From IMG/VR virus record IMGVR_UViG_3300032030_000038, positions 35,425-99,424 of that record: a stretch of DNA of 64,000 nt; one strand, given 5' to 3'. The DNA comes from a virus. Lineage: Duplodnaviria > Caudoviricetes. The stretch's first letter is position 1. Every line of letters begins with the position of its first letter. The position numbers and the translations under genes are program-made. Shown in pieces: positions 11,636-28,137 of this stretch. The notes beneath the pieces were generated by a model that was given only the letters and a program-made list of their open reading frames with translations, did not search any database and was not told the origin of the DNA.

Positions 11636-12063
11636 AGAACTATTTTCTTGGTTTTGTAATTTATTACAGCATTGTTTTCCAATAAAAAAGAATTACCTAA
11701 TATACCACATACATTTTTATTATATTCATATTGTGATTTTAAAAATTCTATTTGGTTTGAAAAATCGCATACTATAAATGAAGAATTATACGAATTATTA
11801 TTCAAATCAAATTCCAAATCAACAGTAGATGTGGAAACAAATTCTGAGTTTGGTATTAATACTGTATTATTATCATCTTTTATCTTGTTAGTCTGCAAAT
11901 TGTATTTTACATAAGTCTTGTCTATAAAATTAGAAGTTGCTCCCGTATCAACAATAAAAGATACATCATTTGAATTTATTTTTGTGTCTACAATAAGCAG
12001 ATTACAAGAATCAAGGCTGCTCTTTACAGAGCAACCCTGATTTCTTAATAACTGTAGACACAT
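11632..12063 (-). CDS. Retropepsin-like aspartic protease
   Basis: FIVDTGAT catalytic motif and GILG flap motif; ATG at 12063 lies one base after the upstream mini-ORF stop; ATGA overlap with polA. Confidence 0.8.
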   Translation of the reverse strand: MCLQLLRNQGCSVKSSLDSCNLLIVDTKINSNDVSFIVDTGATSNFIDKTYVKYNLQTNKIKDDNNTVLIPNSEFVSTSTVDLEFDLNNNSYNSSFIVCDFSNQIEFLKSQYEYNKNVCGILGNSFLLENNAVINYKTKKIVL

Positions 12064-12064
12064 A

Positions 12065-12244
12065 TTAATAGATATCGGGATCAAGATATTCGTCAATCAT
12101 TCTATCTATTACCTCGTCTGGAAGTTCCGGATTGAGATGTTCCTCAATCATTTTATCCGCAATTTCATCGGGTAATTCAGGATTAAGATGTCTTTCAATC
12201 ATTTCATCAATAAGATTTCCATTAGTTAATTCTTCTTCTTTCAT
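12065..12244 (-). CDS. 59-aa acidic tandem-repeat protein (absent from the ORF track)
   Basis: Manual translation MKEEELTNGNLIDEMIERHLNPELPDEIADKMIEEHLNPELPDEVIDRMIDEYLDPDIY*; 17-aa repeats with synonymous codon differences; TACTAACTTAAAA upstream. Confidence 0.75.
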   Translation of the reverse strand: MKEEELTNGNLIDEMIERHLNPELPDEIADKMIEEHLNPELPDEVIDRMIDEYLDPDIY

Positions 12245-15521: not shown

Positions 15522-16564
15522 TAATCAATAATATTTATGTAAGTAATTTGGTTAGTATTTTGCTTTGAATAAATGTCGTTTATAATATTTTCAGGATAAT
15601 TAAACTCTCTGTTTGTTCTGTGCCATTCGATTTTATTGATTATTTCAATATATTTAGGAACAGAAGCTCCTTTCTTTGAAATAACAAGATTTCCTTCCTC
15701 ATTATATTTTATAGGAAAGTTAAAAATCATTGGTACAGAATTTTGAGCGCTTACTACAAGAAATTTAAAATCATCAATTTCCCATAAACCACAATCATCA
15801 CAGTTACTTATACACCACTTTAAAACATCCTGATACATTTCAGCTTGTCTATAATATCTGAATTTGTAAAATGAATTTTCAACCCATTCACTTTCAGGAG
15901 ATTGTGTGACTTTTAAATCAAATGGTATTATTTTATGATTTTTTTCATCAACAAGAATCATGTCATGCAATGTTCTTACATTGCCTTTTGTCATCCTAAC
16001 TTGATAAAAAGCCTTGAAATTTGTAAATAACTTTTTAGTAAGTTCACCTGTCTTTAAAATATTTACAATATTTACAGCCTGATTATAATCATCAGCTGTT
16101 ATTGATATTTTTGAACTATTACATTGAAACTTTTTAAACGATTCGAAAAGATTATATACTTTTTGAAGTACTGTATCGTCTTTAAAAGAAGCATATATTT
16201 TATTCAATCTGCATATAGACAATATAAAATTGTCACTTTCTTCCGAACGGTTTGAGAAATAAACAGGTAATCCGGAGTCAAATAGATTTTCATTAAAGAT
16301 ATTGTATAATTCCATCTGCTTTTCTGAAAGCATATCATCAGAATTACAAATATAAAATTCACTGTTAAAAATTTCCGGAGTAAACAACAAACAATCAACC
16401 AAAGAACCGAAATTCATTGCTTTTGTTGCTTTACACTCAATAAGTAATCCTTTAGGACCATATTTTTCAAAATTTACAACATCAGAATGTCCAATTCTGC
16501 TATCTGCAAAATAATCTTCTTTATTCCACTTTGAGTTTTTTCTTAACAAATCAATTACATTCAT
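15521..16564 (-). CDS. PD-(D/E)XK exonuclease (RecE/DUF3799-like)
   Basis: FGSLVDCLL, DMILVD...PFDLK, YYRQAEMY. Confidence 0.75.
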   Translation of the reverse strand: MNVIDLLRKNSKWNKEDYFADSRIGHSDVVNFEKYGPKGLLIECKATKAMNFGSLVDCLLFTPEIFNSEFYICNSDDMLSEKQMELYNIFNENLFDSGLPVYFSNRSEESDNFILSICRLNKIYASFKDDTVLQKVYNLFESFKKFQCNSSKISITADDYNQAVNIVNILKTGELTKKLFTNFKAFYQVRMTKGNVRTLHDMILVDEKNHKIIPFDLKVTQSPESEWVENSFYKFRYYRQAEMYQDVLKWCISNCDDCGLWEIDDFKFLVVSAQNSVPMIFNFPIKYNEEGNLVISKKGASVPKYIEIINKIEWHRTNREFNYPENIINDIYSKQNTNQITYINIID

Positions 16565-16789: not shown

Positions 16790-17251
16790 TCATAGATTAT
16801 CAGTTAATATCATATTTACACATTCCTTAACTTGTTTTTGATTATGTGGTTCCATAAAAACTATATTTTTATCAACCTTTTTTGATAACACATCTTGACA
16901 ATATTTAAGGAACATTTTTTTCTTTAGAGGATAGGAATCATTTGGTTTCCCTTTTGTTTCTATAAAAATCCAATTGTTTTTATACTTTACCATAAAATCA
17001 GGGGTATATGTAATATCCCTGATTTTATTGCAGTAATGTAAAAGATTATAACCAGAACCCCTCTTCTTCGGTGTTATTATTTTAACACGGTCTGGAATAA
17101 ATCCAGATAAAAGAGTGACTTTTATTGGTTCATATTTAGGAGATAGTCCAACTTCTTTCAATTGTTGATAACAATATCCTTCAAGTTTTGATTTGAATTT
17201 TATGTTATCAATAACAATCGATTGCGCATTTTTTACCTTTTTATTACTCAT
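16790..17251 (-). CDS. Endonuclease (DUF1064 / T7 endonuclease I-like; possible resolvase)
   Basis: FKSKLE, YTPDF, IETKG. Confidence 0.8.
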   Translation of the reverse strand: MSNKKVKNAQSIVIDNIKFKSKLEGYCYQQLKEVGLSPKYEPIKVTLLSGFIPDRVKIITPKKRGSGYNLLHYCNKIRDITYTPDFMVKYKNNWIFIETKGKPNDSYPLKKKMFLKYCQDVLSKKVDKNIVFMEPHNQKQVKECVNMILTDNL

Positions 17252-17254
17252 AGG

Positions 17255-18583
17255 CTACTTTATAAATTTTGATATACAAATCAAATCATCCAGACCTGAT
17301 TCAGCACCTATATAATCATGTAATAATTCCTGTTTTTGCTTTAGAGTTTCCAAGTCTCTCAATGCTCTGAACATAGAACACCTTTTTACATGAGGTGCTT
17401 CATAACAATAAGCAACATCAATCACATCATAAAGAGAGTCACCCATATCACTATATAAAGCCGTATTCAATTCCGTATAGAAATTTTCAATTGGCAAATC
17501 TTTTAATCTACAATAAATAGATTCCGCTATTTTAATCATTCCTGTCAGAATGTACAACCAAATAGTTATTTTATTAAAATTTCTGGTCGGACTTAAAAAG
17601 CGAAATTCAACAGTTTTATGTTTCTTATAAAACAAAAGATTTATAAAATTGACCCAATGATATCTTGATGATACATTCCACTTTCTCGTTCTTGAAGAAT
17701 CATTTGGATGATTGGCTGTCAAATCAATCTTTGAGATATCATTTTCATTTATATAGAAATCTTCATTACTGATATAGTAATTATACATTTCAGATATATT
17801 TGAAAAATCCAAAAGTTTTTTACAATAATCCTTTTTACTCTTTTTGAATTTTGAAGTATTAAATGCATACTTTGGAATGACAGAAACAATTGCATCTTCA
17901 AATTTTTTACATACCTTATATAATGTAAATATGAATCTTATATCATTAGGCACTTTTCCAAAATGAATATGCAACGAACATTCTTTATCAAAACTTGTAT
18001 ACTTTTTAAGCAATTTCAATTGATTTTTCAGAATACTCAAACCATAAGTCTTCCCTAATACAATAGATGAATATTCAAATCCTGAAATTGACCCATCTCT
18101 TAAAGGAATAAGTCCGTACTTATAGCATAAATGTTCTGGAATCATACCACTGCTCGTTTCAAACTCAAAACCAAAAGAATATTTCAATAGTGATTGAAGC
18201 TTATCATTAATCTCCCTGTCCTTTTCAGTATAAAGATTGAATCTTGTTAATAAATTATTGCAAGAATATTCCAAATTAAAAGTTTTGTATTGACAACGAC
18301 CTCTTTCTTTTAAACATCTATAAACTACAAGGGATTTATTATTTACATCTCCATATATATAAAAATAAACACCATTGTTTTTATTATAAAACAAATTTTC
18401 TTTATATTTTATTGATGTAATATCAGTCATCATATCTGCTATAAAGTGTTCAGGCGTTTCTTTATTACTTGAAACATAAAAAATTTGCATATACCCTATC
18501 TTATTATAAGCTACATCCACTCTTTTAGCTTCATATTCATTTGTATTTATCAATAAATCCTCATTAAGCAATAATACTCTCAT
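17255..18583 (-). CDS. Putative amidoligase (Amidoligase_2-type COOH-NH2 ligase)
   Basis: FGFEFET, RDGSI, GFEY, CSLHIHFG, RYHWVN, TVEFRF: glutamine-synthetase/GCS-fold metal ligands. Confidence 0.85.
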   Translation of the reverse strand: MRVLLLNEDLLINTNEYEAKRVDVAYNKIGYMQIFYVSSNKETPEHFIADMMTDITSIKYKENLFYNKNNGVYFYIYGDVNNKSLVVYRCLKERGRCQYKTFNLEYSCNNLLTRFNLYTEKDREINDKLQSLLKYSFGFEFETSSGMIPEHLCYKYGLIPLRDGSISGFEYSSIVLGKTYGLSILKNQLKLLKKYTSFDKECSLHIHFGKVPNDIRFIFTLYKVCKKFEDAIVSVIPKYAFNTSKFKKSKKDYCKKLLDFSNISEMYNYYISNEDFYINENDISKIDLTANHPNDSSRTRKWNVSSRYHWVNFINLLFYKKHKTVEFRFLSPTRNFNKITIWLYILTGMIKIAESIYCRLKDLPIENFYTELNTALYSDMGDSLYDVIDVAYCYEAPHVKRCSMFRALRDLETLKQKQELLHDYIGAESGLDDLICISKFIK

Positions 18584-20183
18584 ATACTTTATTAATTAAT
18601 GTTTGTAATTTCATTTTATCATAAATATCATAATTATTCAAATACTTTGCAAATGAATCTTTATAAAATTCCTTTGCCAATTCTATACTAAACTGCTTCT
18701 TAACATCCTTGGTGGATAGCATACCGTTTTTTATATACGATTTAATAAAAGAGTCCGGGGATTGCAAAGGCATTATGAATTTATAATTATTTATCACTTT
18801 GTTTTTTGCTGATATAAAAGTGCTTGTTTTAGTATCGAAGTAAGGCATAGTATTAAAATAATTACTTTTTCCAGACATAGTATCAAGAATATCATAAGGA
18901 TAACAATCATAATATTCACTAATTAAATCAAGAGCCACGAGTATTTTAGGATGATATAATAAGTTTCCATTTACGAAAGCATAAAAATTCTTTACTGAAA
19001 AATTATTATTTTGATTTATCTTAAGTCCTGATTTTGACAAACTGTATATACCATCGGCAGGTAAATCCCCATCCATATAAATACATCCGTCAAAATAAAC
19101 TCTATCACAATCAAGTGTTGTATCATCGGGAGAATGTGTCTTTTTTAAATATTGAATAGCTTCCAAAGTACACATATTACTAAGTTCATTAGGAACTTTT
19201 ACTGGCAACTCATCTAAAAACAAACTAGGGTGTGACTCAACTAATTCGTTTGAAGACTCTTTATTTGTTTCTACCGTTTTGTTAGTAGTACTTACAGTAC
19301 CCCAATCATAATCATCAATATCATAATCATTATAATAAGGATAAGAAGGATTGTATACTAAAGGGAGTTCAGGATCTTTTTTAGTGCTATTATAAGTGCT
19401 AGTATAAGTACTTGAAGTAGAAATTTCAATTTGTACAAGATTAGAACGATCATACTCTTGAACTTTATATAATTGATATCCTTCTATCATATAAAGGGTA
19501 TTCGTTTCAATAGAAACAAATCCTTTATTATTCAAATATACATTATTATACCTTTCAAGATGTTCTTTTAAAGAACTGAACCAATAACCATTAGTATCTT
19601 TTAACAAAAACAGAGGTCTTTCTTCATCAGTATTTGAAGTTTTGTACTTTTTTGACGCTCCTTTAAAAATATGAACTACAGGTTTTCTTTCTTTATTTTG
19701 CCTGTAATCAACTGTAACAAAAGCGCCAGTACCTGTATATTCCGAGAGTACATCATACCCACAAAAATATATTATATAAGCCATTACTTGACTATCAGTA
19801 TACCCCTCTGCATTAGTAAGATACTTATCACGCAAATCTTCATAATTAGAAATGGTTCCATTATGAATCAATACAAAATCAACCTCATCGTTATCATTTG
19901 TAATAACTACAGGCTGAGCATTTTCCAATGAAGTTACACCTATAGATGTTTTTCTGTCATGACCAATTATAATATGGGCTTTTTTAGTTTTATTAAACAA
20001 CTTGCTTGTTTTATAAAAACTATCAAATTTTTTCTTGTCATCAACCCCATATTCCACATTACCATCTATAAACAATCCGCATGAATCTCCTCCTCTAGTG
20101 TCATTATGTATTCCTAAATTACAAAGCAGTAATTTATTAAATTCAGTTCTTTCTTTTCCTATAAATCCAAATAAACCACACAT
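18564..20183 (-). CDS. Class II (Ntn) glutamine amidotransferase with long C-terminal extension
   Basis: N-terminal MCGLFG, RGGDSCG, GHDRK, NAQP, HNGTI, TDSQ, ERPLF. Confidence 0.9.
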   Translation of the reverse strand: MCGLFGFIGKERTEFNKLLLCNLGIHNDTRGGDSCGLFIDGNVEYGVDDKKKFDSFYKTSKLFNKTKKAHIIIGHDRKTSIGVTSLENAQPVVITNDNDEVDFVLIHNGTISNYEDLRDKYLTNAEGYTDSQVMAYIIYFCGYDVLSEYTGTGAFVTVDYRQNKERKPVVHIFKGASKKYKTSNTDEERPLFLLKDTNGYWFSSLKEHLERYNNVYLNNKGFVSIETNTLYMIEGYQLYKVQEYDRSNLVQIEISTSSTYTSTYNSTKKDPELPLVYNPSYPYYNDYDIDDYDWGTVSTTNKTVETNKESSNELVESHPSLFLDELPVKVPNELSNMCTLEAIQYLKKTHSPDDTTLDCDRVYFDGCIYMDGDLPADGIYSLSKSGLKINQNNNFSVKNFYAFVNGNLLYHPKILVALDLISEYYDCYPYDILDTMSGKSNYFNTMPYFDTKTSTFISAKNKVINNYKFIMPLQSPDSFIKSYIKNGMLSTKDVKKQFSIELAKEFYKDSFAKYLNNYDIYDKMKLQTLINKVYESIIA

Positions 20184-20185
20184 AT

Positions 20186-20983
20186 TTATATTAAATTAAA
20201 TTCATTGATTAATTCTATTGCTTGTTTAGCATTTGATTTATTAATTATACTCACTATTTTTTGGTAAGGTGGCAGTTGTTTTCCTTTTAAAAATGCTTCA
20301 ATTGCAAGACGTACTCTTTTTTGTACCCATCTTACAGTTTTTTCATCTTGAAGAAAAGCTCCGGATAACACTCTCCACTCCACTCCCCAACGTTGAAATC
20401 TGAAACAACCAGCCTTTCCATACAATGTCCGTCTGTTTTTATCCTTATCTAATATAATGGAAGGAATGCCTACATAAGCATCAAGATATTTTATAATCTC
20501 AAGACTTGTTTCAATCATAGGATTATCATACCCTATATGAATATGAAAACCACTACTTCTAAAATTAGGAGCAATTAATTCAGGTTTTTTATTTTGCTTT
20601 TGATTATATGCATTATAATCAGGATCACAACCAAATAAACAAGCCTGTTCATTATTAAGATATTTTTCAGGGATGAATTGACTTGCCGAGGGTTTTAATA
20701 TTAGATGAGATTGTTCTTTTTCAAGATATTCATTAATATAGTTCTTCATAGACAGAATATCAACAATGAAATCATCGTTTTCAAATAATTTACTTGCAGG
20801 AATATTGAATTCTGCAAGAACATTATCAGTTTGCATTGCAAATCCCTCACCTAATTCATCGACTTGATACGGAATTTCTTTTGTTCCGGGGATATAACCT
20901 ATTGCTGAAGCAAATTCATTTTCTTCAGTATTGAATACAAAACATTCGGGATCGGCTCCTATTGTTATATTTTTAATTTGCAT
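20186..20983 (-). CDS. phiEco32-like COOH-NH2 ligase type 2
   Basis: IGADPE, GTKE.P, DNVLAEFNIP, FGCDPDYNAY, RSSGFHIHIG, RR.LYGKAG.FR, GVEWRVLS. Confidence 0.9.
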   Translation of the reverse strand: MQIKNITIGADPECFVFNTEENEFASAIGYIPGTKEIPYQVDELGEGFAMQTDNVLAEFNIPASKLFENDDFIVDILSMKNYINEYLEKEQSHLILKPSASQFIPEKYLNNEQACLFGCDPDYNAYNQKQNKKPELIAPNFRSSGFHIHIGYDNPMIETSLEIIKYLDAYVGIPSIILDKDKNRRTLYGKAGCFRFQRWGVEWRVLSGAFLQDEKTVRWVQKRVRLAIEAFLKGKQLPPYQKIVSIINKSNAKQAIELINEFNLI

Positions 20984-21566
20984 AGTAGTTAATTATATTA
21001 TTTATTATTTTTATAAATTTATCATCATTATTCATCCATTCAGGATGTCCCTGAATAGCAAGCATCTTTGTTTTTGGATACCAAATTACTTCTGGCTCGT
21101 AAGGAGGGTTCTCAAGACCGTCTGAATAATAATGATCACTTCTTGACTCGGTAGACCAAGCCAATACATCATAATTTTCATTAGGTAGATTAAACGGATA
21201 ACACATTTGATGATGACATGAAGTAACCATACAAGTATCACCGTTTTTAAATGTTATTTCATGCTCTCCAAAATGTCCTGTAACATCTTGAATAAGTTTA
21301 CCTCCGTTATAAGCGGTAATCATTTGAGCACCTCTGCAAATGCCAATAATAAATTTATTTTCTTCATGGGCTTTACCGAGTAAAGTCCATTGAATATAAT
21401 CCAAATGTTGGTTTATTCCCCTTGTTGCCACATTTTTACTATTATATAAACTCGGGGAAATATCAGCACCACCCGGTAAAATTACAAAACTTGAATCATT
21501 GAATTCATTACTTCTTACAGTATCCTTTATAAAACTGTATCTATTACTTGAAAAATAATACTTCAT
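20973..21566 (-). CDS. Class I glutamine amidotransferase / peptidase C26 (gamma-glutamyl hydrolase-like)
   Basis: PGGADISP, GICRGAQ nucleophile, SCHHQ, QGHPE His-Glu; TAATG overlap with the upstream gene. Confidence 0.9.
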   Translation of the reverse strand: MKYYFSSNRYSFIKDTVRSNEFNDSSFVILPGGADISPSLYNSKNVATRGINQHLDYIQWTLLGKAHEENKFIIGICRGAQMITAYNGGKLIQDVTGHFGEHEITFKNGDTCMVTSCHHQMCYPFNLPNENYDVLAWSTESRSDHYYSDGLENPPYEPEVIWYPKTKMLAIQGHPEWMNNDDKFIKIINNIINYYAN

Positions 21567-22423
21567 TATTCTATGCAATTTGAATCCTTATATTCTTTTA
21601 ATTTTTTATTAATATAATAACTTAAATAATGTACATAAGCATCAAAAACTTTTTCATAAGAATCATATTTATCAAATTTATTTTCAATATTTCGTTTTAT
21701 AGATCTGTTTAATTGAATATCAGTTAGTCTGTCAACTGAAAAAAGATTCCTATTTATACTATTACAAAATATATGATAATTCATTCGTTCTAAAATTTCA
21801 TTAAGACAATTCGGGTCAAAACGATGATGGGAATCAAAACAAATTCTTCTGGGATCATTATTTAAAAATAAATCATCACCCATACTCCACATATACATAT
21901 TATCAATAAGAAAAACCAACTCAAGTAAACTTAAATTATATTTGTTTGATTTCCAAATATTATAAGCAATTTTTAATGTTACAGACAATAAAAATCTGTA
22001 AAATCTTCTACACATATTTAATATAAGTAGAATTTGTGGTCTGGTTGCTTCAGTAAATATTAAATATAATTTAATAAAGTCATCGTGTTCTTCTATTGAA
22101 TAATCCATAAAAGGAAAATTCAATTTTAAATAATTAAGAATTTCAGTTATTTCATCTATAGAAAAATTTAGTTTATTATCTTTATAATATGTTGCGTTAT
22201 AACCTTCATTATCGATTTGAAAATTTTTATAAATCTTTAAAATTACTGTGCCACTGTTTTTATTAAAAGGTAAAAATCCACGTCCTCTCATCAATGCTCC
22301 AAAGCATATATAACCATTTTCCGGAACTTCAAATTCTACTGATGAATAAATATTAGCAGCACTCCAAGTCAAAAATTTTATTTTATTATTTGTATTTCCA
22401 ATTTTAATATTATTAGTTCTCAT
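21566..22423 (-). CDS. Hypothetical protein inside the ligase cluster
   Basis: 285-aa ORF overlapping both neighbours; no motif recognised. Confidence 0.7.
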   Translation of the reverse strand: MRTNNIKIGNTNNKIKFLTWSAANIYSSVEFEVPENGYICFGALMRGRGFLPFNKNSGTVILKIYKNFQIDNEGYNATYYKDNKLNFSIDEITEILNYLKLNFPFMDYSIEEHDDFIKLYLIFTEATRPQILLILNMCRRFYRFLLSVTLKIAYNIWKSNKYNLSLLELVFLIDNMYMWSMGDDLFLNNDPRRICFDSHHRFDPNCLNEILERMNYHIFCNSINRNLFSVDRLTDIQLNRSIKRNIENKFDKYDSYEKVFDAYVHYLSYYINKKLKEYKDSNCIE

Positions 22424-23186
22424 TGCTTACAATTTTTTTTAATTCGTTAATATATTTAGGAGCACTTTCCTCACCAAGTGCAGGTGCTGAATTGGTTTCA
22501 AGAATAATAAAATCAGGATGTTCTTGTTTATTACTTTGAACTTTTACATCAACACAACCTATTTCCAAACCTACAGCAGCAATTGCCTTCTGGCATTCAG
22601 CTACAATCTCATCCCAATTTACAGGCTTGTCAAACATTTCATTATCTTCTCTAATCCACACAGTATTTATATGATGTCTATGCCATCTTTCAGTTGCATC
22701 GTTTTTGAGCATCTTTCTATTAGCATGAAAACACCCGAATTTATCGACATGCAATCTATATTCACGAACGTATTTATGATATTTTTCAATAATATAATTA
22801 TTAAGATTGCTATTATGTGAGTTAATAAATTCAGTCATTTCTTCAGCATTTTGTATATAATATATACCTTTGCCTTTTGAAGAATGAATATGTTTAATAA
22901 TCAAAGGATAATTCTCATTGAATTCATCCGTGTTATCAAATGTCCACCACTGTGCAGTTTTAACATTGTGTTTATCAAATGCACGTTTCATAAGATATTT
23001 GTCATTTGAGGTTTTACACGCTTCTACCGTGTTGATTTCCCTTATTAATTCGGGATGTTTACAATGTTTAAACACTTCATTTGTCGGAGTAAAACTGCCT
23101 AATCTATATACAGTAGGCCTGGTTACTTCAATTTGGTTTCTTAATAAATTTGCCGAATGATTACGGCTTCTTACTTTTAAAAACAT
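22413..23186 (-). CDS. ATP-grasp ligase (RimK/YheCD-like)
   Basis: N...C.TS.DK, YPLIIK..HSSKGKGI, IIEKY, EYRLHV, GCVDV, ILETNSAP. Confidence 0.9.
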   Translation of the reverse strand: MFLKVRSRNHSANLLRNQIEVTRPTVYRLGSFTPTNEVFKHCKHPELIREINTVEACKTSNDKYLMKRAFDKHNVKTAQWWTFDNTDEFNENYPLIIKHIHSSKGKGIYYIQNAEEMTEFINSHNSNLNNYIIEKYHKYVREYRLHVDKFGCFHANRKMLKNDATERWHRHHINTVWIREDNEMFDKPVNWDEIVAECQKAIAAVGLEIGCVDVKVQSNKQEHPDFIILETNSAPALGEESAPKYINELKKIVSNEN

Positions 23187-23190
23187 AGTT

Positions 23191-24153
23191 TTAATTAAAT
23201 AAGTTATTAAAATATTCTATAAATTTTTTTCTTTTATAAGTTTTAAAAAAGTCACTTGGATCTTTTACACCGAGCGTATTATCTATTTCTGTATAAACTA
23301 AATCATATTTCTTGGAAAGTTCCTTGCCAAATTTTTTACCTGTTTCATCATTATCAAGCAATACATAAACAGTTTTGAATCTTTCTTTTATTTGATTTAT
23401 AATCTTGTCTTTTGGAAAGTAAGTCTCACCTTGAAGACAAGTTGCCGGAATACCTATATTGGCCCACAAACACAAAGCATCCTTTCTTGATGAGGTTATA
23501 ATAAGTTTATTTCCAGAGGCTGGTAACTGACGCCATAAATCCCACACAGACTTATCATGGCTGCTCATCCATTTGCATCTTTTACTATAAGGTTGATAAA
23601 TTTTAAATGTTGTTTTGTTGTCTTTGAATTCCGCATATGCATAAGCATACTTTTCAGCAGGTATATCCAATTCATTATTGTCTTTGTTTATAAAAATGTC
23701 TTTTATAGGATATATATTACCAAAAACAAGCCATTCTTTTGAAATACCATACTTATTCCAAAATTCAAAGTCATAATCTTGCCAGTCTCTTATTGAAATA
23801 TTTATACCAATATTATTATTGTTTCTTTTAATTGGTCTTGTAACTTTTATTGTTTTACCAGGCTTGAAATTAAATTCCTGACCTATTTTCAATAAAACTG
23901 TATTATAGTCACAATTGAATTTTTTTTTGAGAAGTCCATAAATATCCCAACATTCCTGTGTGGCAAAATCTTTGAACAATAATTTACCAGACTTATTATA
24001 AAATATTGAAAATGAAGGATTTTTATCTTTTCTAAAAGGTGAATTTATTACACATGGAATATGATTTATATTACCAAAAAAGTGAGTGAAGATTTCTTCT
24101 TCACTCACTTTAATGTCATCAATACTGGCTATTGGTTTAGAAAGGGAGATCAT
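23191..24153 (-). CDS. DNA primase (crAss type, TOPRIM)
   Basis: SPFRKDKNPSF, FKDFAT, KIYQP, ITSSRKD, QGE, LDNDETG, KDPSD. Confidence 0.9.
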   Translation of the reverse strand: MISLSKPIASIDDIKVSEEEIFTHFFGNINHIPCVINSPFRKDKNPSFSIFYNKSGKLLFKDFATQECWDIYGLLKKKFNCDYNTVLLKIGQEFNFKPGKTIKVTRPIKRNNNNIGINISIRDWQDYDFEFWNKYGISKEWLVFGNIYPIKDIFINKDNNELDIPAEKYAYAYAEFKDNKTTFKIYQPYSKRCKWMSSHDKSVWDLWRQLPASGNKLIITSSRKDALCLWANIGIPATCLQGETYFPKDKIINQIKERFKTVYVLLDNDETGKKFGKELSKKYDLVYTEIDNTLGVKDPSDFFKTYKRKKFIEYFNNLFN

Positions 24154-25057
24154 TCAAGTCACTCAAATCATTACTGCTTGTTTCAGGAATTGTATCAGGA
24201 ATAGGAGAATCGTTGGGAGTAACTACAGACTTTTCAGGAATATATTCATGAATAATCATAGCACTATATTCAACGTTTGCCATACCACCAGATTTCTTGT
24301 AATCTTCAATGTTCTTCTTATAGAAATTGGTGTATCCGTTGTTATTATTACGCATAAAATCTCTGGAAAAGATTGTTTGATATCTTCTTCCCTCAGAAGT
24401 GGTTTGCACACCAAACAACACCTTGATTTTATACACAACATTTTCCTTTGTTTCCTTTTCCTTTGCAGCTACAATCAATCCTTTGATTTCCTCCAACTTT
24501 CCAGACATAATATCTTCCCAATTAAGCTGAATGTCACAATTTTCTGCATCATTCACAGGAACAAATGTCTGTGCATTGTTGTCCCATCTTGTTCTGTCCT
24601 CAATACCAGCCCAATATTTGATAAACTTTGTAAGTTCAACTTCTCCACGCTTTGCAGGACGATAATCTCCAAACATCTTTGTCTTTGGAGGCAATGCTTT
24701 TGTCTGATACTGTTCTTTTGTTACCCAAGAAGATTCACCAAAATTGTCGATAACTTGAAACTTTGTTTTGTCTCTGTTTACATTAACTTCATTGGTACAG
24801 AAGAAATTAACATTCGAAATAATATCCACTTTATTATCATTATCAGTGGTTTGAACATAAATGGTAACTCTTGTTTGATTGACTTTCTTTCCATCAACTT
24901 CAATTTGAGTCTTATAAACAGGCTCATCATTTACATTAATACCAATTTCAGCAAGTTGCGCCTTATTGGGGTTTACACACAAGACTTTTACAGGAGCGAA
25001 TCCAACATAGCGTTTGAATGATTGAGTTTCTTCTACTTGTTTACCTAATTTAATCAT
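24137..25057 (-). CDS. Putative single-stranded DNA-binding protein
   Basis: Adjacent to primase; acidic tail ending DLPF; high-expression codon bias. Confidence 0.6.
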   Translation of the reverse strand: MIKLGKQVEETQSFKRYVGFAPVKVLCVNPNKAQLAEIGINVNDEPVYKTQIEVDGKKVNQTRVTIYVQTTDNDNKVDIISNVNFFCTNEVNVNRDKTKFQVIDNFGESSWVTKEQYQTKALPPKTKMFGDYRPAKRGEVELTKFIKYWAGIEDRTRWDNNAQTFVPVNDAENCDIQLNWEDIMSGKLEEIKGLIVAAKEKETKENVVYKIKVLFGVQTTSEGRRYQTIFSRDFMRNNNNGYTNFYKKNIEDYKKSGGMANVEYSAMIIHEYIPEKSVVTPNDSPIPDTIPETSSNDLSDLNDLPF

Positions 25058-25178
25058 AGTTAATTTATTTTAAGTTAATATAATATATAATTCTAATCAA
25101 AAATATTTTTTACATGTAAATTTTCTACATTAAAATTGTTTCAAGAATTGTTTGTTTCATATTATTTATAATTTGCTA

Positions 25179-25736
25179 TTATTGTAAATTGTCAACCCAC
25201 GCATTGCTTAATTCATTCGCATTTTCTTTGTTTTCCATGAAATCGAGTAATGCTGAATTAAATTCTGACATACCATTTTTTACAGTATTTTTGAAAATAA
25301 AATATTTACATATTTGCATATAAGTATAATCACCATTAAAAGATTGTATATATCTTTTGGTAGCATCTAAAACCTCATCAAAATTAAGTTGTATATTTAA
25401 TTTTATTTGAAGTTTGTCAAGCCTTTGAACAATTTCAGCATGACTCCCTCGCCATGAATGATTTGTACCTGGTTTTAAACCAAGCGGAAACTGACTCTGA
25501 ATAGCCTCTGCTATATTATTTATATTATTTTTTATCGGTTTAGGGGTCATATCTACCATTGACAAGATAACTTCTTGTACTTCAAGATTTTTAAAAGTTC
25601 CATCAGGATTTATATCTTCCGAAAACTTATTTAGAAAGTCTTGATAAGAAGCACATCTGGCAAGATTGTATAAATAATTAAAATCAGTGTCTGTAATATC
25701 AGAACCAAAAATGCTTAAAAATTCTTGTTTAGTCAT
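25179..25736 (-). CDS. Conserved crAss-like replication-region protein
   Basis: WRGS, VLDATKRYI, YMQ..KYFI.K pattern typical of this position in crAss-like genomes. Confidence 0.6.
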   Translation of the reverse strand: MTKQEFLSIFGSDITDTDFNYLYNLARCASYQDFLNKFSEDINPDGTFKNLEVQEVILSMVDMTPKPIKNNINNIAEAIQSQFPLGLKPGTNHSWRGSHAEIVQRLDKLQIKLNIQLNFDEVLDATKRYIQSFNGDYTYMQICKYFIFKNTVKNGMSEFNSALLDFMENKENANELSNAWVDNLQ

Positions 25737-25738
25737 AT

Positions 25739-26119
25739 TTACTTTACAAAATAATATTTTATATCACGAATTCCTTTATACTCAAGCCAATTTTGAATAT
25801 GTTCAAAATTTTCATATAATTTCGATGGAATATTGTCAATTATATAAATATAAGAACCATCCTCCAATTTAACTCTTGTATAAAATGCAGGATAGCCTTC
25901 ATAACGCTCTACCTCTTTAAAGACTTCATCAGACACTCCATATGTTTCCACATAAACAGGATTTGTTTTTGTATCCTTTAAAAGTGCTGGAAACTCTCCA
26001 AAATCAACCATTTTGTAAGGAAGGTCAATAACTCCTTTACGAATTAATTTCGAATCTTTAAGAATGTGATGAGCATGAGCTCCCTCTAATAAAGAGCCGT
26101 AAGTTGTGATTTTTTCCAT
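25739..26119 (-). CDS. Gamma-glutamylcyclotransferase (AIG2/GGCT-like)
   Basis: YGSL..G..H, FPAL, VETY.V, E.YEGYP.FY.R with the catalytic Glu. Confidence 0.85.
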   Translation of the reverse strand: MEKITTYGSLLEGAHAHHILKDSKLIRKGVIDLPYKMVDFGEFPALLKDTKTNPVYVETYGVSDEVFKEVERYEGYPAFYTRVKLEDGSYIYIIDNIPSKLYENFEHIQNWLEYKGIRDIKYYFVK

Positions 26120-26121
26120 AC

Positions 26122-26322
26122 TTAAACTTCACTTGAATTAGACATTAAATTATCATATACTTCCTGATTTAAATCAAGAAGTAAAATTTGTTTAGCCAAG
26201 GTTCGTATTTGATTAATATTTGTAATATTATTAGGGAATGCCCCGTCAAATACAAACCACTCTGTTCTTAATTGGTCCATTAGGAATTTGAAATGTTGGA
26301 CTTTTTTTGGTAATTCTTCCAT
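26122..26322 (-). CDS. Hypothetical protein
   Basis: 66-aa ORF in operon spacing. Confidence 0.55.
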   Translation of the reverse strand: MEELPKKVQHFKFLMDQLRTEWFVFDGAFPNNITNINQIRTLAKQILLLDLNQEVYDNLMSNSSEV

Positions 26323-26375
26323 TGTTAACTTATTTTTATTGATTATTAGTCTCTTATTCTTCTTTTCTGTTCATA

Positions 26376-26570
26376 TCAGCCAAGTTTCAGAATATCATCA
26401 ATAGCATCATCAGGAGTGTAGAATAGATTGTCCGTCTTGAGGAACGGGTCAAAGCCACTCATGCCAAAGCATCGTCCTGTGTACACGATACCTTCCCATA
26501 GGTACCCAAGGTGACCGTCATCATCGGTGACAACTGAATGCGCAGTGAAAAAGTATTCTTGTTGTTTCAT
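26376..26570 (-). CDS. Hypothetical protein (GC-richer)
   Basis: 64-aa ORF. Confidence 0.55.
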   Translation of the reverse strand: MKQQEYFFTAHSVVTDDDGHLGYLWEGIVYTGRCFGMSGFDPFLKTDNLFYTPDDAIDDILKLG

Positions 26571-26582
26571 ATCACTCGCAAA

Positions 26583-27014
26583 TTATTCTTCAGTTTCCGG
26601 TTTGCCCAACTTGTAATGACACACGATCTTCTTGGTGAGTCCAGCATAGTATACTGGGATCCCGTTCTCATCGACATACTTCTTGAGCGCGTTCAGCACA
26701 TTGGTGAAGCTTTCTGTCCATCCTATAGAGAATGATGTCTCAAAGCCATAGAAGTTTCGTGGCAGTTTTTCGGCAATTTCCTTTCCTTCTCTTAAAAACC
26801 AGTGCCCGTCGTCTTCTCCGATAAAGTATAGCTGGTCTACTATACATACTACAGCGCCGCAGCCCCAAAGAGAAATTGCAATATTGTCGTTGTATCTGAC
26901 AACTCCTGGCTTAGCACCATTGAATATGCTGTAGTCATCAGAGTCTTGGTTATAGTGATTGTTCAGCCAGCTCACGATTGATTCGAGTTCAGTTTTATCG
27001 TTCATATTACTCAC
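26583..27014 (-). CDS. Hypothetical protein
   Basis: 143-aa ORF with EDDGHWF motif. Confidence 0.65.
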   Translation of the reverse strand: MSNMNDKTELESIVSWLNNHYNQDSDDYSIFNGAKPGVVRYNDNIAISLWGCGAVVCIVDQLYFIGEDDGHWFLREGKEIAEKLPRNFYGFETSFSIGWTESFTNVLNALKKYVDENGIPVYYAGLTKKIVCHYKLGKPETEE

Positions 27015-27182
27015 AAATTCATTTCAGATATTAAATACCATTCATCCTACGGTATTCTTTCCAAGTCATTTTCCTGCAAACTATATAATGTATATAAGCA
27101 ATCTTTTCCTGCAATTCCTGAAATGATAAGCTGCGTTTGGTCTTTTTAGTCTCTTTTTTCATAAATTTTATTTACTACATCT

Positions 27183-27401
27183 TTATCTCTCTATTTCTAT
27201 CTCTCTATTTTTCAAATATTGAATTATCACATCCTTGATATCTACATCTTGAGATGTGAGTTTCTTCTTGTATGACTCGACCAAGTTCTTGTAGTACTTC
27301 GCATCGCTCCCCCAAAAACTCCATCCCAGAAGCACGCTCAGTCCGATGCAACCGAGCATCGCTAAAATTATTACAATGAATCCGTCTATCATATCACTCA
27401 C
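27183..27401 (-). CDS. Small membrane-anchored protein
   Basis: N-terminal TM helix followed by a coiled coil. Confidence 0.55.
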   Translation of the reverse strand: MSDMIDGFIVIILAMLGCIGLSVLLGWSFWGSDAKYYKNLVESYKKKLTSQDVDIKDVIIQYLKNREIEIER

Positions 27402-28095
27402 AAATTATAAGTTCTTTAGCATACGGAAGACTCTCGATCCAAGCACAGAACTCGCCCCAGTCTTCTTTGAGTTTGTGGTTCTTGCGCTGTTTGTAGATGG
27501 TGGCAAGCTGTTCGTAGTTAGTAGAGCAGTGCACCCAGAGCTCAGCGCCCATCGGGCAGTTGGAGATGATGCGCATGTACAGGTCATAGAGCACATCGTC
27601 GGAAGTGTTCAGACTGAGCGAGTTTTGCGCATCTCGTTCGCTGAAGTATTGCTCGAGTAACACATAATAGTCTTTCCTCAGATCGATAAACACATCGAAC
27701 TGGTCTAGGTTCACGAACATCAGATTGTACAGTTGTATCATGCTGTTCATCAGCTTGATCTCAGTCACAGAAACATACCGGTTGCAGCATTTCGAGAAGT
27801 CCATCTTAGTTATGCAGTGCATCATTGATGTGCTGCTCACATATTGGAGAAAGTGATAGCGCTGGACCTGCTTTGTGAAGTACTGCGGGTACTTCAGATC
27901 AAAGGTGACCAGGATACCTGTTCTGAAATTTGTATGACCTGTACCACCACCAAGAGATGCAAGATGCTTACATCTCACTACTGCTTTTATAACATTTTCA
28001 TTCACAACTTCTTGAGGCTCGACAAGCATAGCATTTCCAGAAGCAACCATTGCTTCTTCAAGATTATAAACATGTGTGTTTTTAATTTCTACCAT
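27394..28095 (-). CDS. Divergent ThyX-like (flavin-dependent thymidylate synthase fold) protein
   Basis: GH.NF, FDL..P, Q.QRYH....SS.S.MH and NY.QL..IY.QR..H follow the ThyX layout, but the RHR signature is absent. Confidence 0.5.
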   Translation of the reverse strand: MVEIKNTHVYNLEEAMVASGNAMLVEPQEVVNENVIKAVVRCKHLASLGGGTGHTNFRTGILVTFDLKYPQYFTKQVQRYHFLQYVSSTSMMHCITKMDFSKCCNRYVSVTEIKLMNSMIQLYNLMFVNLDQFDVFIDLRKDYYVLLEQYFSERDAQNSLSLNTSDDVLYDLYMRIISNCPMGAELWVHCSTNYEQLATIYKQRKNHKLKEDWGEFCAWIESLPYAKELIICE

Positions 28096-28137
28096 ATCCA
28101 AAATATATTACTATGTTTTTTGATTGTTTTTTCATAT

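What the first reader, a model, noticed from the sequence alone, without database searches (positions are those of the whole stretch)
17255..26119. Amide/peptide-ligation cassette (ligases, amidotransferases, gamma-glutamyl eraser) embedded in the replication module
Seen: between primase and endonuclease lie six tightly coupled genes: ATP-grasp ligase, unknown 285 aa, class I GATase/C26, COOH-NH2 ligase type 2, class II GATase and Amidoligase_2-type ligase. A GGCT lies 2.5 kb upstream on the same strand. Catalytic motifs look intact. Established: a similar ATP-grasp + COOH-NH2 ligase + GATase II + GGCT neighbourhood is known from comparative genomics of phiEco32-like phages; to my knowledge its product is not established. 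Inference: three ligases, two ammonia donors/hydrolases and a gamma-glutamyl remover form a reversible pathway making a gamma-glutamyl or amidated peptide, or a tag on cell wall, protein or nucleic acid (superinfection exclusion or anti-defence). This is the strongest protein-level candidate for an uncharacterised system in the window.
Basis: partly seen in the sequence, partly recalled or inferred. Interest (0 to 1): 0.75.

Follow-up and report, generated by a model that had tools for sequence, protein, structure and literature searches.

The report
Phage amide-ligase gene cassette
A crAss-like phage from the ruminant gut carries an intact copy of a gene cassette known from hundreds of phages since 2009 but never tested; its enzymes make and trim glutamate-type amide bonds, and its product is still unknown.

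Summary
Six translationally coupled minus-strand genes lie at 17255-23186: ATP-grasp ligase, a 285-aa unknown, class I GATase/C26, COOH-NH2 ligase, Ntn GATase II and Amidoligase_2. A GGACT gene lies at 25739-26119. All reach the Pfam cut-offs and keep their catalytic motifs.

This is the phiEco32/LUZ24-type phage amidoligase cassette predicted by Iyer et al. in 2009. Its product has never been determined. This scan has already met it in at least 142 other genomes.

What I add:
- The host phage is a Crassvirales member. The same synteny occurs in cr108_1, in cultured Cellulophaga phage phi14:2 and in many IMG/VR contigs.
- The "orphan" belongs to a cassette-specific family (U-family) with an invariant Cys. 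It always co-occurs with C26, and natural fusions exist (C26-U and U-C26-ligase).
- The C-terminal domain of the Ntn GATase is a conserved domain with no match to any solved fold.
- GGACT is optional. It is absent from five complete cassette-bearing genomes and travels only with the ATP-grasp gene.

Best reading: two glutamine-dependent amidoligase units plus an ATP-grasp ligase act on a carboxylate-rich, glutamate-type substrate. The obligatory "reversible eraser" idea is not supported. The known DNA-hypermodification routes are absent. Verdict: a real and intact, but ordinary, member of a known uncharacterised system.

The parts
25739..26119 (-). GGACT/AIG2-type gamma-glutamyl(amine) cyclotransferase, 126 aa. 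An optional accessory of the cassette, here 2.5 kb upstream.
   Evidence: PF06094, 47.6 bits; phrog_2520; YGSL and E-x-x-E-G-Y motifs. In relatives it sits next to the ATP-grasp gene or is absent.
22413..23186 (-). ATP-grasp ligase, 257 aa, with only a short N-terminal domain.
   Evidence: PF02222, 30.7 bits; phrog_2599, E 9e-29. The K98, R154 (EYRLHV) and E230-x-N232 motifs are present. NCBIfam hits to the Ddl, cyanophycin, RimK and PurK models are all far below their cut-offs.
21566..22423 (-). U-family protein (the "unknown 285 aa"). A cassette-specific partner of the C26 enzyme, with invariant Cys40 and near-invariant Phe41 and Arg139.
   Evidence: Only 5 homologues among 1.84 billion representatives, all in the same slot. 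hhalign against 66 slot-equivalent ORFs gives 95.7%, E 8.7e-9. Alignment A4. Fusions with C26 and the ligase. No Pfam, PDB or fold match.
20973..21566 (-). Class I glutamine amidotransferase / Peptidase C26, 197 aa. Its ATG overlaps the upstream stop codon (TAATG).
   Evidence: PF07722, 50.8 bits; PF00117, 28 bits. Cys in GICRG, His and Glu in QGHPE. Junction read. Best NCBIfam hit is gamma-glutamyl-CDP-amidate hydrolase, 43.9 bits against a cut-off of 250.
20186..20983 (-). phiEco32-type COOH-NH2 ligase type 2 (GS/GCS-fold carboxylate-amine ligase), 265 aa.
   Evidence: PF14395, 35.7 bits; phrog_3815, E 6e-66. More than 721 homologues. Invariant GADPE, EFN, HxH, RR and ExR columns.
19419..20183 (-). 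Ntn (class II) glutamine amidotransferase domain of the 539-aa protein, residues 1-255.
   Evidence: PF13522, 45.8 bits. Cys2, R77, N108-G109 and D130 are present. 42% identity to cr108_1 gp033 over this domain only.
18567..19151 (-). C-terminal domain of the Ntn GATase (residues 345-539, "ntnC"). A conserved family with no known fold, probably a docking or acceptor-side domain.
   Evidence: An iterated HMM finds it in 54 loci. Alignment A3 has only Gly and aromatic invariant columns. AF2 model: pLDDT 85.8, pTM 0.81. Foldseek best E 2.3; VIA-align wide best Z 2.0, rmsd 2.8, 49 residues aligned.
17255..18583 (-). Amidoligase_2 (GS-like ATP-dependent amidoligase), 442 aa. The core is about residues 100-360; the N- and C-terminal extensions are variable.
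   Evidence: PF12224, 24.4 bits; phrog_2443, E 4e-16. 41% identity to cr108_1 gp034 over the core, with the FGxEFE, DGS..G.EY, CSLHxH and TVEFR motifs shared.
23191..24153 (-). DNA primase. This is the upstream boundary and not part of the cassette.
   Evidence: phrog_12622, E 3e-50; weak Toprim hit.
16790..17251 (-). DUF1064 / endonuclease I-like nuclease. This is the downstream boundary and not part of the cassette.
   Evidence: PF06356, 40.8 bits.

Best explanation
The region is an intact copy of the phiEco32/LUZ24-type phage amidoligase cassette, probably co-transcribed, carried by a ruminant-gut Crassvirales phage.

It is built from three sub-modules:
1. An ATP-grasp ligase, with GGACT as an optional companion.
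2. The U-family protein, the class I GATase (C26) and the COOH-NH2 ligase.
3. The Ntn GATase, with its own new C-terminal domain, and Amidoligase_2.

The mechanism I commit to is inferred, not shown. Each GS-fold ligase activates a carboxylate with ATP as an acyl-phosphate and receives ammonia from its own glutaminase. The pathway therefore performs two glutamine-dependent amidations (-COOH to -CONH2). The ATP-grasp enzyme adds one amino-acid residue through a peptide bond. All three steps act on one carboxylate-rich, glutamate-type substrate.

The best candidate substrates are a short free glutamyl peptide or a peptidoglycan stem-peptide precursor. The enzymes would be made together with the replication genes, before the virion genes.

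Where GGACT is present, it removes or recycles a gamma-glutamyl-amine by-product or intermediate of the ATP-grasp step.
For: Shown:
- All six enzyme families are present with intact catalytic motifs and overlapping genes.
- COOH-NH2 ligase, Ntn GATase and Amidoligase_2 are directly consecutive in 76 of 81 evaluable loci. C26 lies directly upstream of the ligase in 67 of 86.
- The same block sits between primase and DUF1064/PD-(D/E)XK/RNR in cr108_1, phi14:2 and many IMG/VR crAss-like contigs.
- Natural fusions exist: C26+U in L051 and L059 (BLASTP E 1e-24; hhalign 99.0%, E 8e-18), and U+C26+COOH-NH2 ligase in one 773-aa ORF that sits between an ATP-grasp gene and the next large gene.
- U is never found without C26: 52 loci have both and none has U alone.
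- The Ntn domain keeps the full glutamine-binding set (Cys2, Arg, Asn-Gly, Asp). It carries a conserved non-catalytic C-terminal domain where GlmS, PurF and AsnB carry their acceptor domain.
- GGACT occurs only with ATP-grasp: 32 loci have both and none has GGACT alone.
- A phiEco32-like phage (SU10) expresses the ATP-grasp, GATase and YtfP/GGCT proteins as early products (PMC4281155).
- A sheep-gut RNA library holds identical contigs across the cassette, with uneven depth. This is a weak hint of transcription.

From established knowledge:
- Class I glutaminases fused or adjacent to ATP-dependent synthases are the norm (CTP synthase, GMP synthase, MurT/GatD).
- Peptidoglycan amidation uses one class I system (MurT/GatD) and one class II system (AsnB1/LtsA).
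- NAGGN synthesis pairs an ATP-grasp ligase with an Ntn amidotransferase.
Against: - No product, substrate or activity has been measured in any phage.
- C26-family enzymes with a known function (PuuD, folate gamma-glutamyl hydrolase, Cj1417) hydrolyse gamma-glutamyl-X rather than feeding ammonia to a partner. The best NCBIfam hit of this C26 is such an enzyme.
- Stand-alone Ntn "GATases" such as EgtC are also gamma-glutamyl hydrolases.
- Ligase-hydrolase fusions with opposing activities exist (glutathionylspermidine synthetase/amidase), so a fusion does not prove ammonia channelling.
- I found no fusion of the Ntn GATase with Amidoligase_2 (weak evidence).
- The triple fusion rests on a single 4.7-kb contig.
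- The loci in the survey are related to one another, so the co-occurrence counts are not independent events.
- phi14:2 lacks both C26 and U, so that unit is not essential to the core.
- The choice of peptidoglycan as target is an analogy only.
Confidence: 0.45

Rival explanations
1. A gamma-glutamyl protect/deprotect pathway. The GS-fold ligases gamma-glutamylate an amine, for example a polyamine or an amino-metabolite as in PuuA/PauA. The ATP-grasp enzyme extends it. The C26 enzyme, the Ntn hydrolase and GGACT then remove gamma-glutamyl groups, as PuuD, EgtC and BtrG do. The result is a processed small molecule, or the consumption of a host amine.
For: - The top Pfam hit of the class I enzyme is Peptidase_C26, and its top NCBIfam hit is gamma-glutamyl-CDP-amidate hydrolase.
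- The GGACT family acts on gamma-glutamyl-amines (established knowledge), and the gene is present here and in 32 loci.
- The Ntn domain would bind a gamma-glutamyl moiety as readily as glutamine.
- The pairing of a GS-like ligase with a C26 hydrolase is the logic of the Puu pathway (established knowledge).
Against: - GGACT is absent from five complete genomes that carry the cassette.
- C26 is covalently fused to the ligase in one lineage, which is the more typical layout for ammonia supply.
- Three separate gamma-glutamyl removers for one pathway is redundant.
- The cassette holds no oxidase, dehydrogenase or other tailoring enzyme that would justify a protecting-group strategy.
Confidence: 0.27
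2. A protein- or peptide-tagging system. The ligases attach glutamate or a small peptide to a host or phage protein, as RimK, LysX and PafA do. The hydrolases prepare or remove the tag. The fast-evolving U-family protein is the target-recognition subunit or the substrate itself.
For: - The ATP-grasp enzyme hits RimK/LysX-type models weakly.
- COOH-NH2 ligases share the fold of the Pup ligase (established knowledge).
- U-family proteins and the terminal extensions of Amidoligase_2 and the Ntn GATase evolve very fast while the catalytic cores stay about 41% identical. This is typical of surfaces in conflict with host proteins.
- An earlier scan note (e1-3433680) describes a related cassette interleaved with proteins that share one C-terminal peptide.
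Against: - No conserved C-terminal acceptor motif exists in the U-family; its C-termini differ even among the six closest members.
- This window has no small precursor or tag gene, because the genes abut one another.
- U is fused to the enzymes in some phages, which suits a subunit better than a substrate.
- No PADLOC match.
Confidence: 0.15
3. DNA or nucleotide hypermodification. Because the cassette sits in the replication module, it would append a glutamyl or amide group to a base or a nucleotide pool.
For: - The cassette lies between primase and nuclease/RNR here and near the primase in LUZ24-like and phi14:2 phages.
- In Leptolyngbya phage Lbo-JY46 it lies next to PrsA and a PncB-like gene.
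- Amino-acid-bearing thymidines exist in other phages (established knowledge).
Against: - This 98%-complete genome has no ThyA-type hydroxymethylase, no ThyX and no TGT/DpdA.
- No conserved cassette component has a nucleic-acid-binding, glycosylase, kinase or transferase domain.
- The PrsA/PncB adjacency is explained by NAD salvage.
- An earlier follow-up in this scan (e1-3261384) also argued against DNA modification.
Confidence: 0.05

Closest known systems
phiEco32/LUZ24-type phage amidoligase cassette (Iyer, Abhiman, Burroughs & Aravind 2009, Mol Biosyst; Pfam PF14395 and PF12224)
   Same: It holds the same five families: ATP-grasp, COOH-NH2 ligase type 2, Ntn GATase II, Amidoligase_2 and GGCT. 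In LUZ24-like phages they also lie next to the primase/helicase, together with two 280-340-aa unknowns and a 186-aa unknown. The product is unknown in both.
   Different: The order is AG-U-C26-CNL-NTN-AM2 here, against unknown-unknown-CNL-x-AM2-NTN-AG-GGCT in LUZ24-likes. A recognisable C26 enzyme and the U-family are present here, whereas the LUZ24-like unknowns gp13/gp14 showed no detectable similarity to U (inconclusive). GGACT is detached by 2.5 kb. The host phage is a 99-kb crAss-like virus.
Crassvirales copies: cr108_1 gp028-gp034 (NC_055878) and Cellulophaga phage phi14:2 g037-g041 (NC_021806)
   Same: Same position, between the primase and the UDG/endonuclease/exonuclease/RNR genes, and same gene order. 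The catalytic cores are 41-42% identical to cr108_1.
   Different: cr108_1 has two tandem U-family paralogues and no GGACT anywhere in its genome. phi14:2 has GGCT next to ATP-grasp, no C26, no U, and a longer (638-aa) Ntn protein with a different C-terminus.
Peptidoglycan amidation enzymes: MurT/GatD (class I GATase plus ligase) and AsnB1/LtsA (Ntn GATase II)
   Same: One class I and one class II glutaminase, each tied to an ATP-dependent carboxylate-activating partner. Peptidoglycan was the target originally proposed for the phage cassette (as cited).
   Different: The ligase folds differ: GS/GCS-type here, against Mur-ligase and PP-loop types there. There is no sequence relationship beyond the glutaminase domains, and the target is untested.
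Gamma-glutamyl amine metabolism: PuuA/PuuD, EgtA/EgtC, BtrJ/BtrG and the gamma-glutamyl cycle
   Same: A GS/GCS-fold ligase combined with a C26 or Ntn hydrolase and a GGCT-fold enzyme.
   Different: None of these family models is reached. PuuD (NF008471) scores 13.8 bits against a cut-off of 266, and Cj1417 (NF045546) scores 43.9 bits against 250. No redox or other tailoring enzymes accompany the cassette.
N-acetylglutaminylglutamine amide (NAGGN) synthesis, Ngg and AsnO
   Same: An ATP-grasp peptide ligase followed by an Ntn glutamine-dependent amidation, giving an amidated dipeptide.
   Different: The hits are only weak, at 15.6 and 24.4 bits against cut-offs of about 570. There is no GNAT domain, and the synthase here is GS-like rather than AsnB-like.

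Membership tests
phiEco32/LUZ24-type phage amidoligase cassette | COOH-NH2 ligase type 2 (PF14395) is present | tested here: met
   35.7 bits against a cut-off of 25; phrog_3815, E 6.4e-66 over the full length.
phiEco32/LUZ24-type phage amidoligase cassette | Ntn (class II) GATase with an N-terminal catalytic Cys, adjacent to an Amidoligase_2 (PF12224) gene | tested here: met
   MCGLFG start and PF13522 at 45.8 bits. PF12224 at 24.4 bits against a cut-off of 22. The two genes overlap by 20 nt.
phiEco32/LUZ24-type phage amidoligase cassette | ATP-grasp ligase in the same gene block | tested here: met
   PF02222 at 30.7 bits against a cut-off of 27. It is the first gene of the block, 4 nt after the primase.
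phiEco32/LUZ24-type phage amidoligase cassette | GGCT/AIG2-fold enzyme associated with the block | tested here: met
   PF06094 at 47.6 bits, on the same strand 2.5 kb upstream. The same placement occurs in relative L005, and the gene is adjacent to ATP-grasp in other relatives. It is optional across the family.
phiEco32/LUZ24-type phage amidoligase cassette | The genes co-occur and keep their order across unrelated phage lineages | tested here: met
   319 phage records and 241 IMG/VR loci encode the ligase. CNL-NTN-AM2 are consecutive in 76 of 81 loci.
phiEco32/LUZ24-type phage amidoligase cassette | ATP-dependent amide-bond product | not testable with these tools
   No biochemical data exist for any member.
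Class I glutamine amidotransferase / Peptidase C26 | Cys-His-Glu triad in the conserved motifs, with the Pfam threshold reached | tested here: met
   PF07722 at 50.8 bits against a cut-off of 20.5. GICRG Cys and QGHPE His/Glu are present.
Gamma-glutamyl-CDP-amidate hydrolase (NF045546, equivalog) | Score above the curated equivalog cut-off | tested here: not met
   43.9 bits against a cut-off of 250.
RimK family alpha-L-glutamate ligase (TIGR00768); the PHROG label is 'ribosomal protein S6 glutaminyl transferase' | Score above the subfamily cut-off | tested here: not met
   28.9 bits against a cut-off of 143.4. The Ddl, cyanophycin and PurK models score similarly, so the PHROG name should not be taken as a function.
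Known phage DNA hypermodification routes (5-hmdU/5-hmdC-derived; 7-deazaguanine) | A ThyA-like hydroxymethylase or a TGT/DpdA transglycosylase encoded in the genome | tested here: not met
   No PF00303, PF02511 or PF01702 match in the 98%-complete genome.
Anti-phage defence systems (PADLOC-DB) | Any component matches a defence-system model | tested here: not met
   No hit at E <= 0.01 for eight proteins.

The most novel reading that the evidence does not exclude
U-C26-COOH-NH2 ligase is a previously unrecognised three-part glutamine amidotransferase. The U-family protein, with its invariant Cys and near-invariant Arg, would be a new substrate-binding or catalytic subunit. The Ntn GATase would use a domain of new fold to dock on Amidoligase_2. 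Together the two machines would amidate two carboxylates of a host cell-envelope precursor, such as the D-iGlu and mDAP carboxylates of the peptidoglycan stem peptide. This would give crAss-like and many other lytic phages a way to rewire the host wall during infection.
Probability: 0.15. Interest if true: 0.65.

Novelty: new member of a known kind. Interest (0 to 1): 0.35.

Why it matters
The cassette is one of the most widespread sets of phage enzyme genes with no known product. I found 319 reference phage records and 241 IMG/VR loci with the ligase. It is almost absent from bacterial genomes: only 15 loci among 185,579 species, all of them on MAG contigs.

Its presence in a sizeable branch of Crassvirales, the dominant gut phages, and in the cultured crAss-like Cellulophaga phage phi14:2 widens its reach and offers another tractable model.

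The fusions that link U, C26 and the ligase give concrete, cheap biochemical hypotheses: which proteins to co-purify, and which residue to mutate. So does the optional ATP-grasp/GGACT pairing.

This window does not change the basic picture known since 2009.

Tried and rejected
Searches that found nothing:
- Megablast of the region against reference phages: no match.
- A single-protein scan of IMG/VR with the ligase: none confirmed. An alignment was needed.
- tblastn of the 285-aa protein against phages: none.
- BLASTP and hhalign of it against the cr108_1 and phage TL unknowns: not significant. The link appeared only through a 66-member profile.

Structure and profile work that gave no lead:
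- AF2 model of the 285-aa protein: mediocre (pLDDT 63.5). It gave only generic ferredoxin-like matches at Z about 6.
- ESM Atlas: nothing usable for either unknown.
- PDB sequence searches for the ligases: nothing.
- U-family profile against the PDB and Pfam: nothing.
- Pfam on the longer Ntn, ATP-grasp and amidoligase variants of phi14:2 and Lbo-JY46: no extra domains.
- The search for a fusion of the Ntn GATase with Amidoligase_2 found only an amidoligase with an unknown 590-aa N-terminus.

Other checks:
- The sigma-70 promoter scan is uninformative in this AT-rich DNA: 87 sites found against 74 expected.
- The Iyer 2009 paper itself is not held.
- Read laying used contigs only, so it cannot show transcript ends or levels.

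Rejected readings:
- Chance juxtaposition, because of the conserved synteny.
- A defence system, because of the PADLOC result.
- The RimK function implied by the PHROG label.

Full report
**What is there.**

The window is bases 35425-99424 of a 99,424-bp IMG/VR virus record that CheckV rates 98% complete. Its major capsid protein is 55-59% identical to those of Steigviridae crAss-like phages: cr111_1, cr106_1, cr108_1 and the PhiCrAssBcn isolates. Near-identical DNA occurs in sheep, goat and bovine gut metagenomes.

On the minus strand the gene order is as follows:

| Coordinates | Gene |
|---|---|
| 25739-26119 | GGACT |
| 25179-25736 | 185-aa unknown |
| 24137-25057 | SSB-like protein with an acidic ...DLPF tail |
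| 23191-24153 | primase |
| 22413-23186 | ATP-grasp ligase |
| 21566-22423 | 285-aa unknown |
| 20973-21566 | class I GATase/C26 |
| 20186-20983 | COOH-NH2 ligase |
| 18564-20183 | Ntn GATase II |
| 17255-18583 | Amidoligase_2 |
| 16790-17251 | DUF1064 nuclease |
| 15521-16564 | PD-(D/E)XK exonuclease |
| 13293-15521 | ribonucleotide reductase |
| 9650-11635 | PolA |

Every enzyme call passes its Pfam gathering threshold. Reading the translations shows the expected catalytic residues:
- Cys2, Arg77, Asn108-Gly109 and Asp130 in the Ntn domain;
- GICRG Cys and QGHPE His/Glu in C26;
- Lys, Arg and Glu-x-Asn in the ATP-grasp enzyme;
- GADPE, HxH and ExR in the COOH-NH2 ligase, which are also the invariant columns of 25 homologues;
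- YGSL in GGACT.

The six cassette genes overlap or abut (+4, -11, -1, -11, +2, -20, +3 nt). The C26 ATG overlaps the preceding stop codon as TAATG. No terminator-like site lies on the coding strand across 16-27.5 kb.

**It is a known, very common cassette.**

- tblastn of the COOH-NH2 ligase finds 319 reference phage records. They include Bruynoghevirus/LUZ24-like and Kuravirus/phiEco32-like phages, and phages of Vibrio, Aeromonas, Proteus and others.
- The published UFV-P2 and TL annotations list the same families next to the primase/helicase.
- Every paper I could read that comments on function cites only the 2009 comparative-genomics prediction of Iyer et al., namely cell-wall modification, superinfection exclusion or metabolite synthesis. 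I found no experimental product.
- Proteomics of the phiEco32-like phage SU10 detected the ATP-grasp, GATase and YtfP/GGCT proteins among early products.
- This scan has noted the cassette in at least 142 other genomes, with follow-ups reaching the same verdict.
- The ligase family is essentially confined to phages. Among representative genomes of 185,579 prokaryote species only 15 loci appear, all on MAG contigs.

**The Crassvirales context.**

The closest annotated relative is cr108_1. It has the order primase, ATP-grasp, two hypotheticals, GATase I, COOH-NH2 ligase, GATase II, a hypothetical that is Amidoligase_2, then UDG and an endonuclease. The catalytic cores are 41-42% identical to the window's, while the flanking domains and the unknown ORFs do not align.

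Of 114 crAss-like reference records that share the capsid protein, only cr108_1 and the cultured Cellulophaga phage phi14:2 carry the amidoligase. phi14:2 has a minimal form: primase, GGCT, ATP-grasp, COOH-NH2 ligase, a 638-aa Ntn GATase, amidoligase, UDG.

In IMG/VR, 241 loci encode a ligase relative. I fetched 80 of them with 10-kb flanks and annotated them, together with six other loci, using iterated HMMs built from the window's proteins. Of the 86 loci:

| Feature | Loci |
|---|---|
| Ntn GATase | 84 |
| Amidoligase_2 | 81 |
| C26 | 76 |
| ATP-grasp | 67 |
| ntnC domain | 54 |
| U-family | 52 |
| GGACT | 32 |

Ligase, Ntn GATase and amidoligase are directly consecutive in 76 of the 81 loci that extend far enough. 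C26 lies directly upstream of the ligase in 67. Many loci of about 100 kb repeat the window's primase ... DUF1064/exonuclease/RNR frame. These loci are related to one another, so the counts describe lineages, not independent events.

**The "orphan" is a family tied to C26.**

The 285-aa protein has only five homologues among 1.84 billion representative proteins. Those I looked up sit in the same slot after the ATP-grasp gene.

I clustered the unlabelled ORFs that lie upstream of the ligase in the 86 loci. One cluster held 68 proteins of 233-386 aa, often as tandem pairs. A profile of the 285-aa family matches that cluster at 95.7% probability, E 8.7e-9, over 144 columns.

In the joint alignment Cys40 is invariant, and Phe41 and Arg139 are nearly so. 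The motifs are "aCF" and "R.lYE.P". The family has no Pfam, PDB-sequence or convincing fold match.

It never occurs without C26: 52 loci have both and none has U alone. Two kinds of natural fusion tie it to its neighbours:
- A protein of about 505 aa in L051 and L059 is C26 followed by a U domain (33% identity, E 1e-24; hhalign 99.0%, E 8e-18).
- A 773-aa protein, P0127, is U + C26 + COOH-NH2 ligase in the window's gene order. An ATP-grasp gene lies before it and a gene of at least 496 aa after it.

The triple fusion rests on one short contig. Taken with the universal adjacency, the fusions still argue that U, C26 and the ligase work as one unit.

**The Ntn GATase extension.**

Residues of about 345-539 form a domain that iterated searching finds in 54 loci. 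Its alignment has only Gly and aromatic invariant columns. AlphaFold2 models it confidently, at pLDDT 85.8 and pTM 0.81. Yet Foldseek (best E 2.3) and an exhaustive VIA-align pass (best Z 2.0, rmsd 2.8, 49 residues aligned) find nothing in the PDB.

It sits where GlmS, PurF and AsnB carry their acceptor domains, and the amidoligase gene always follows it. I read it as an acceptor-side or docking domain. This is inference.

Other lineages carry longer Ntn proteins with different, equally unannotated C-termini.

**GGACT.**

GGACT lies within 10 kb in 32 of 86 loci, always together with ATP-grasp and usually adjacent to it. Five complete genomes that have the cassette but no nearby GGACT have none anywhere. 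It is therefore an optional companion of the ATP-grasp step, not an obligatory eraser of the pathway.

**Mechanism.**

The conserved anatomy is shown. The chemistry is inferred.

The layout of two glutaminases, each welded to its own GS-fold ATP-dependent ligase, is what glutamine-dependent amidotransferases look like. I therefore favour two amidations plus one ATP-grasp peptide-bond step on a carboxylate-rich glutamate-type substrate.

Peptidoglycan precursors are an attractive target. Known wall amidation uses exactly one class I and one class II system. The phages that carry the ligase and have a named host in the record infect Pseudomonas, E. coli, Vibrio, Aeromonas, Cellulophaga, a cyanobacterium and a planctomycete, all bacteria.

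The main rival is a gamma-glutamyl protect/deprotect route. It is supported by the C26 family's known hydrolase members and by the best NCBIfam hit, gamma-glutamyl-CDP-amidate hydrolase, which is far below its cut-off. Protein tagging remains possible, given the very fast evolution of U and of the terminal extensions.

DNA hypermodification by the known routes is unlikely. The genome has no ThyA-like, ThyX or TGT/DpdA gene, and the cassette has no nucleic-acid-handling domain. No component matches a defence-system model.

A sheep-gut metatranscriptome library contains identical contigs over the cassette. Depth ranges from 0.6 to 28 and peaks over the SSB region. This hints at transcription but does not prove it.

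**Verdict.**

This is a real, intact and well-conserved copy of a long-known but biochemically uncharacterised phage cassette. Its interpretation is reasonable in outline but over-weights GGACT.

The incremental findings are the Crassvirales distribution, the U-family with its fusions, the ntnC domain of unknown fold, and the modular ATP-grasp/GGACT pairing. They sharpen the experiments to do but do not make this a new kind of system.

Noticed in passing
window 18567-19151 (-): The C-terminal domain of the Ntn GATase is modelled confidently (pLDDT 85.8). It has no match in the PDB by Foldseek or by the exhaustive VIA-align pass (best Z 2.0). It may be a new fold and is conserved in 54 related loci.
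   Followed up: yes
window 24137-25057 (-): A 306-aa protein with no Pfam or PHROG hit ends in an acidic ...DLSDLNDLPF tail typical of single-strand DNA-binding proteins. Homologues sit just upstream of the primase in 38 related loci.
   Followed up: partly
window 25179-25736 (-): A 185-aa unknown lies directly after GGACT (2-nt gap). It belongs to a family found in 39 related loci. In most of them it lies further upstream in the replication module, so it is probably not part of the cassette.
   Followed up: partly
window 21849-21861: Goat-gut variants of this phage carry insertions within the U-family gene; in one goat-gut run (X2) they add up to 12 nt, so that form is in-frame, while the rest of the cassette differs by about 0.65% substitutions with no gaps. 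This fits a coding gene that evolves fast.
   Followed up: no
window 27394-28101 (-): Another first-stage note calls a gene here "ThyX-like". Pfam Thy1 (PF02511) and Thymidylat_synt (PF00303) find nothing in the whole genome. The ORF matches only phrog_6721, which has no known function.
   Followed up: partly
window 11632-12096 (-): A retropepsin-like aspartyl protease (PF13650, 24.8 bits) lies directly upstream of PolA. The same placement is seen, faintly, in relatives L005 and L007.
   Followed up: no
L005:16892-20013 and L002:18141-21749, against window 13293-15521: In relatives the ribonucleotide reductase is split by a LAGLIDADG endonuclease gene (an intron or intein). The window's RNR is one uninterrupted 742-aa ORF.
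   Followed up: no
L004 (Leptolyngbya phage Lbo-JY46) 3754-16512: An expanded cassette with three C26 genes, a 536-aa ATP-grasp and a 729-aa Ntn GATase lies directly after a PncB-like phosphoribosyltransferase and a PRPP synthetase. This is either coincidental NAD-salvage neighbours or a hint of a nucleotide-linked substrate.
   Followed up: no
window 26001-28000: GC content rises to 0.395, against about 0.28-0.30 in the flanking replication module.
   Followed up: no
window 44976-48287 (+): The large terminase ORF is unusually long at 1103 aa. The main PHROG family (phrog_6681) matches it in two stretches, the best at 569-1081, while residues of about 190-555 match other terminase, primase and helicase-loader families. 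It may hold an insertion or an intein.
   Followed up: no
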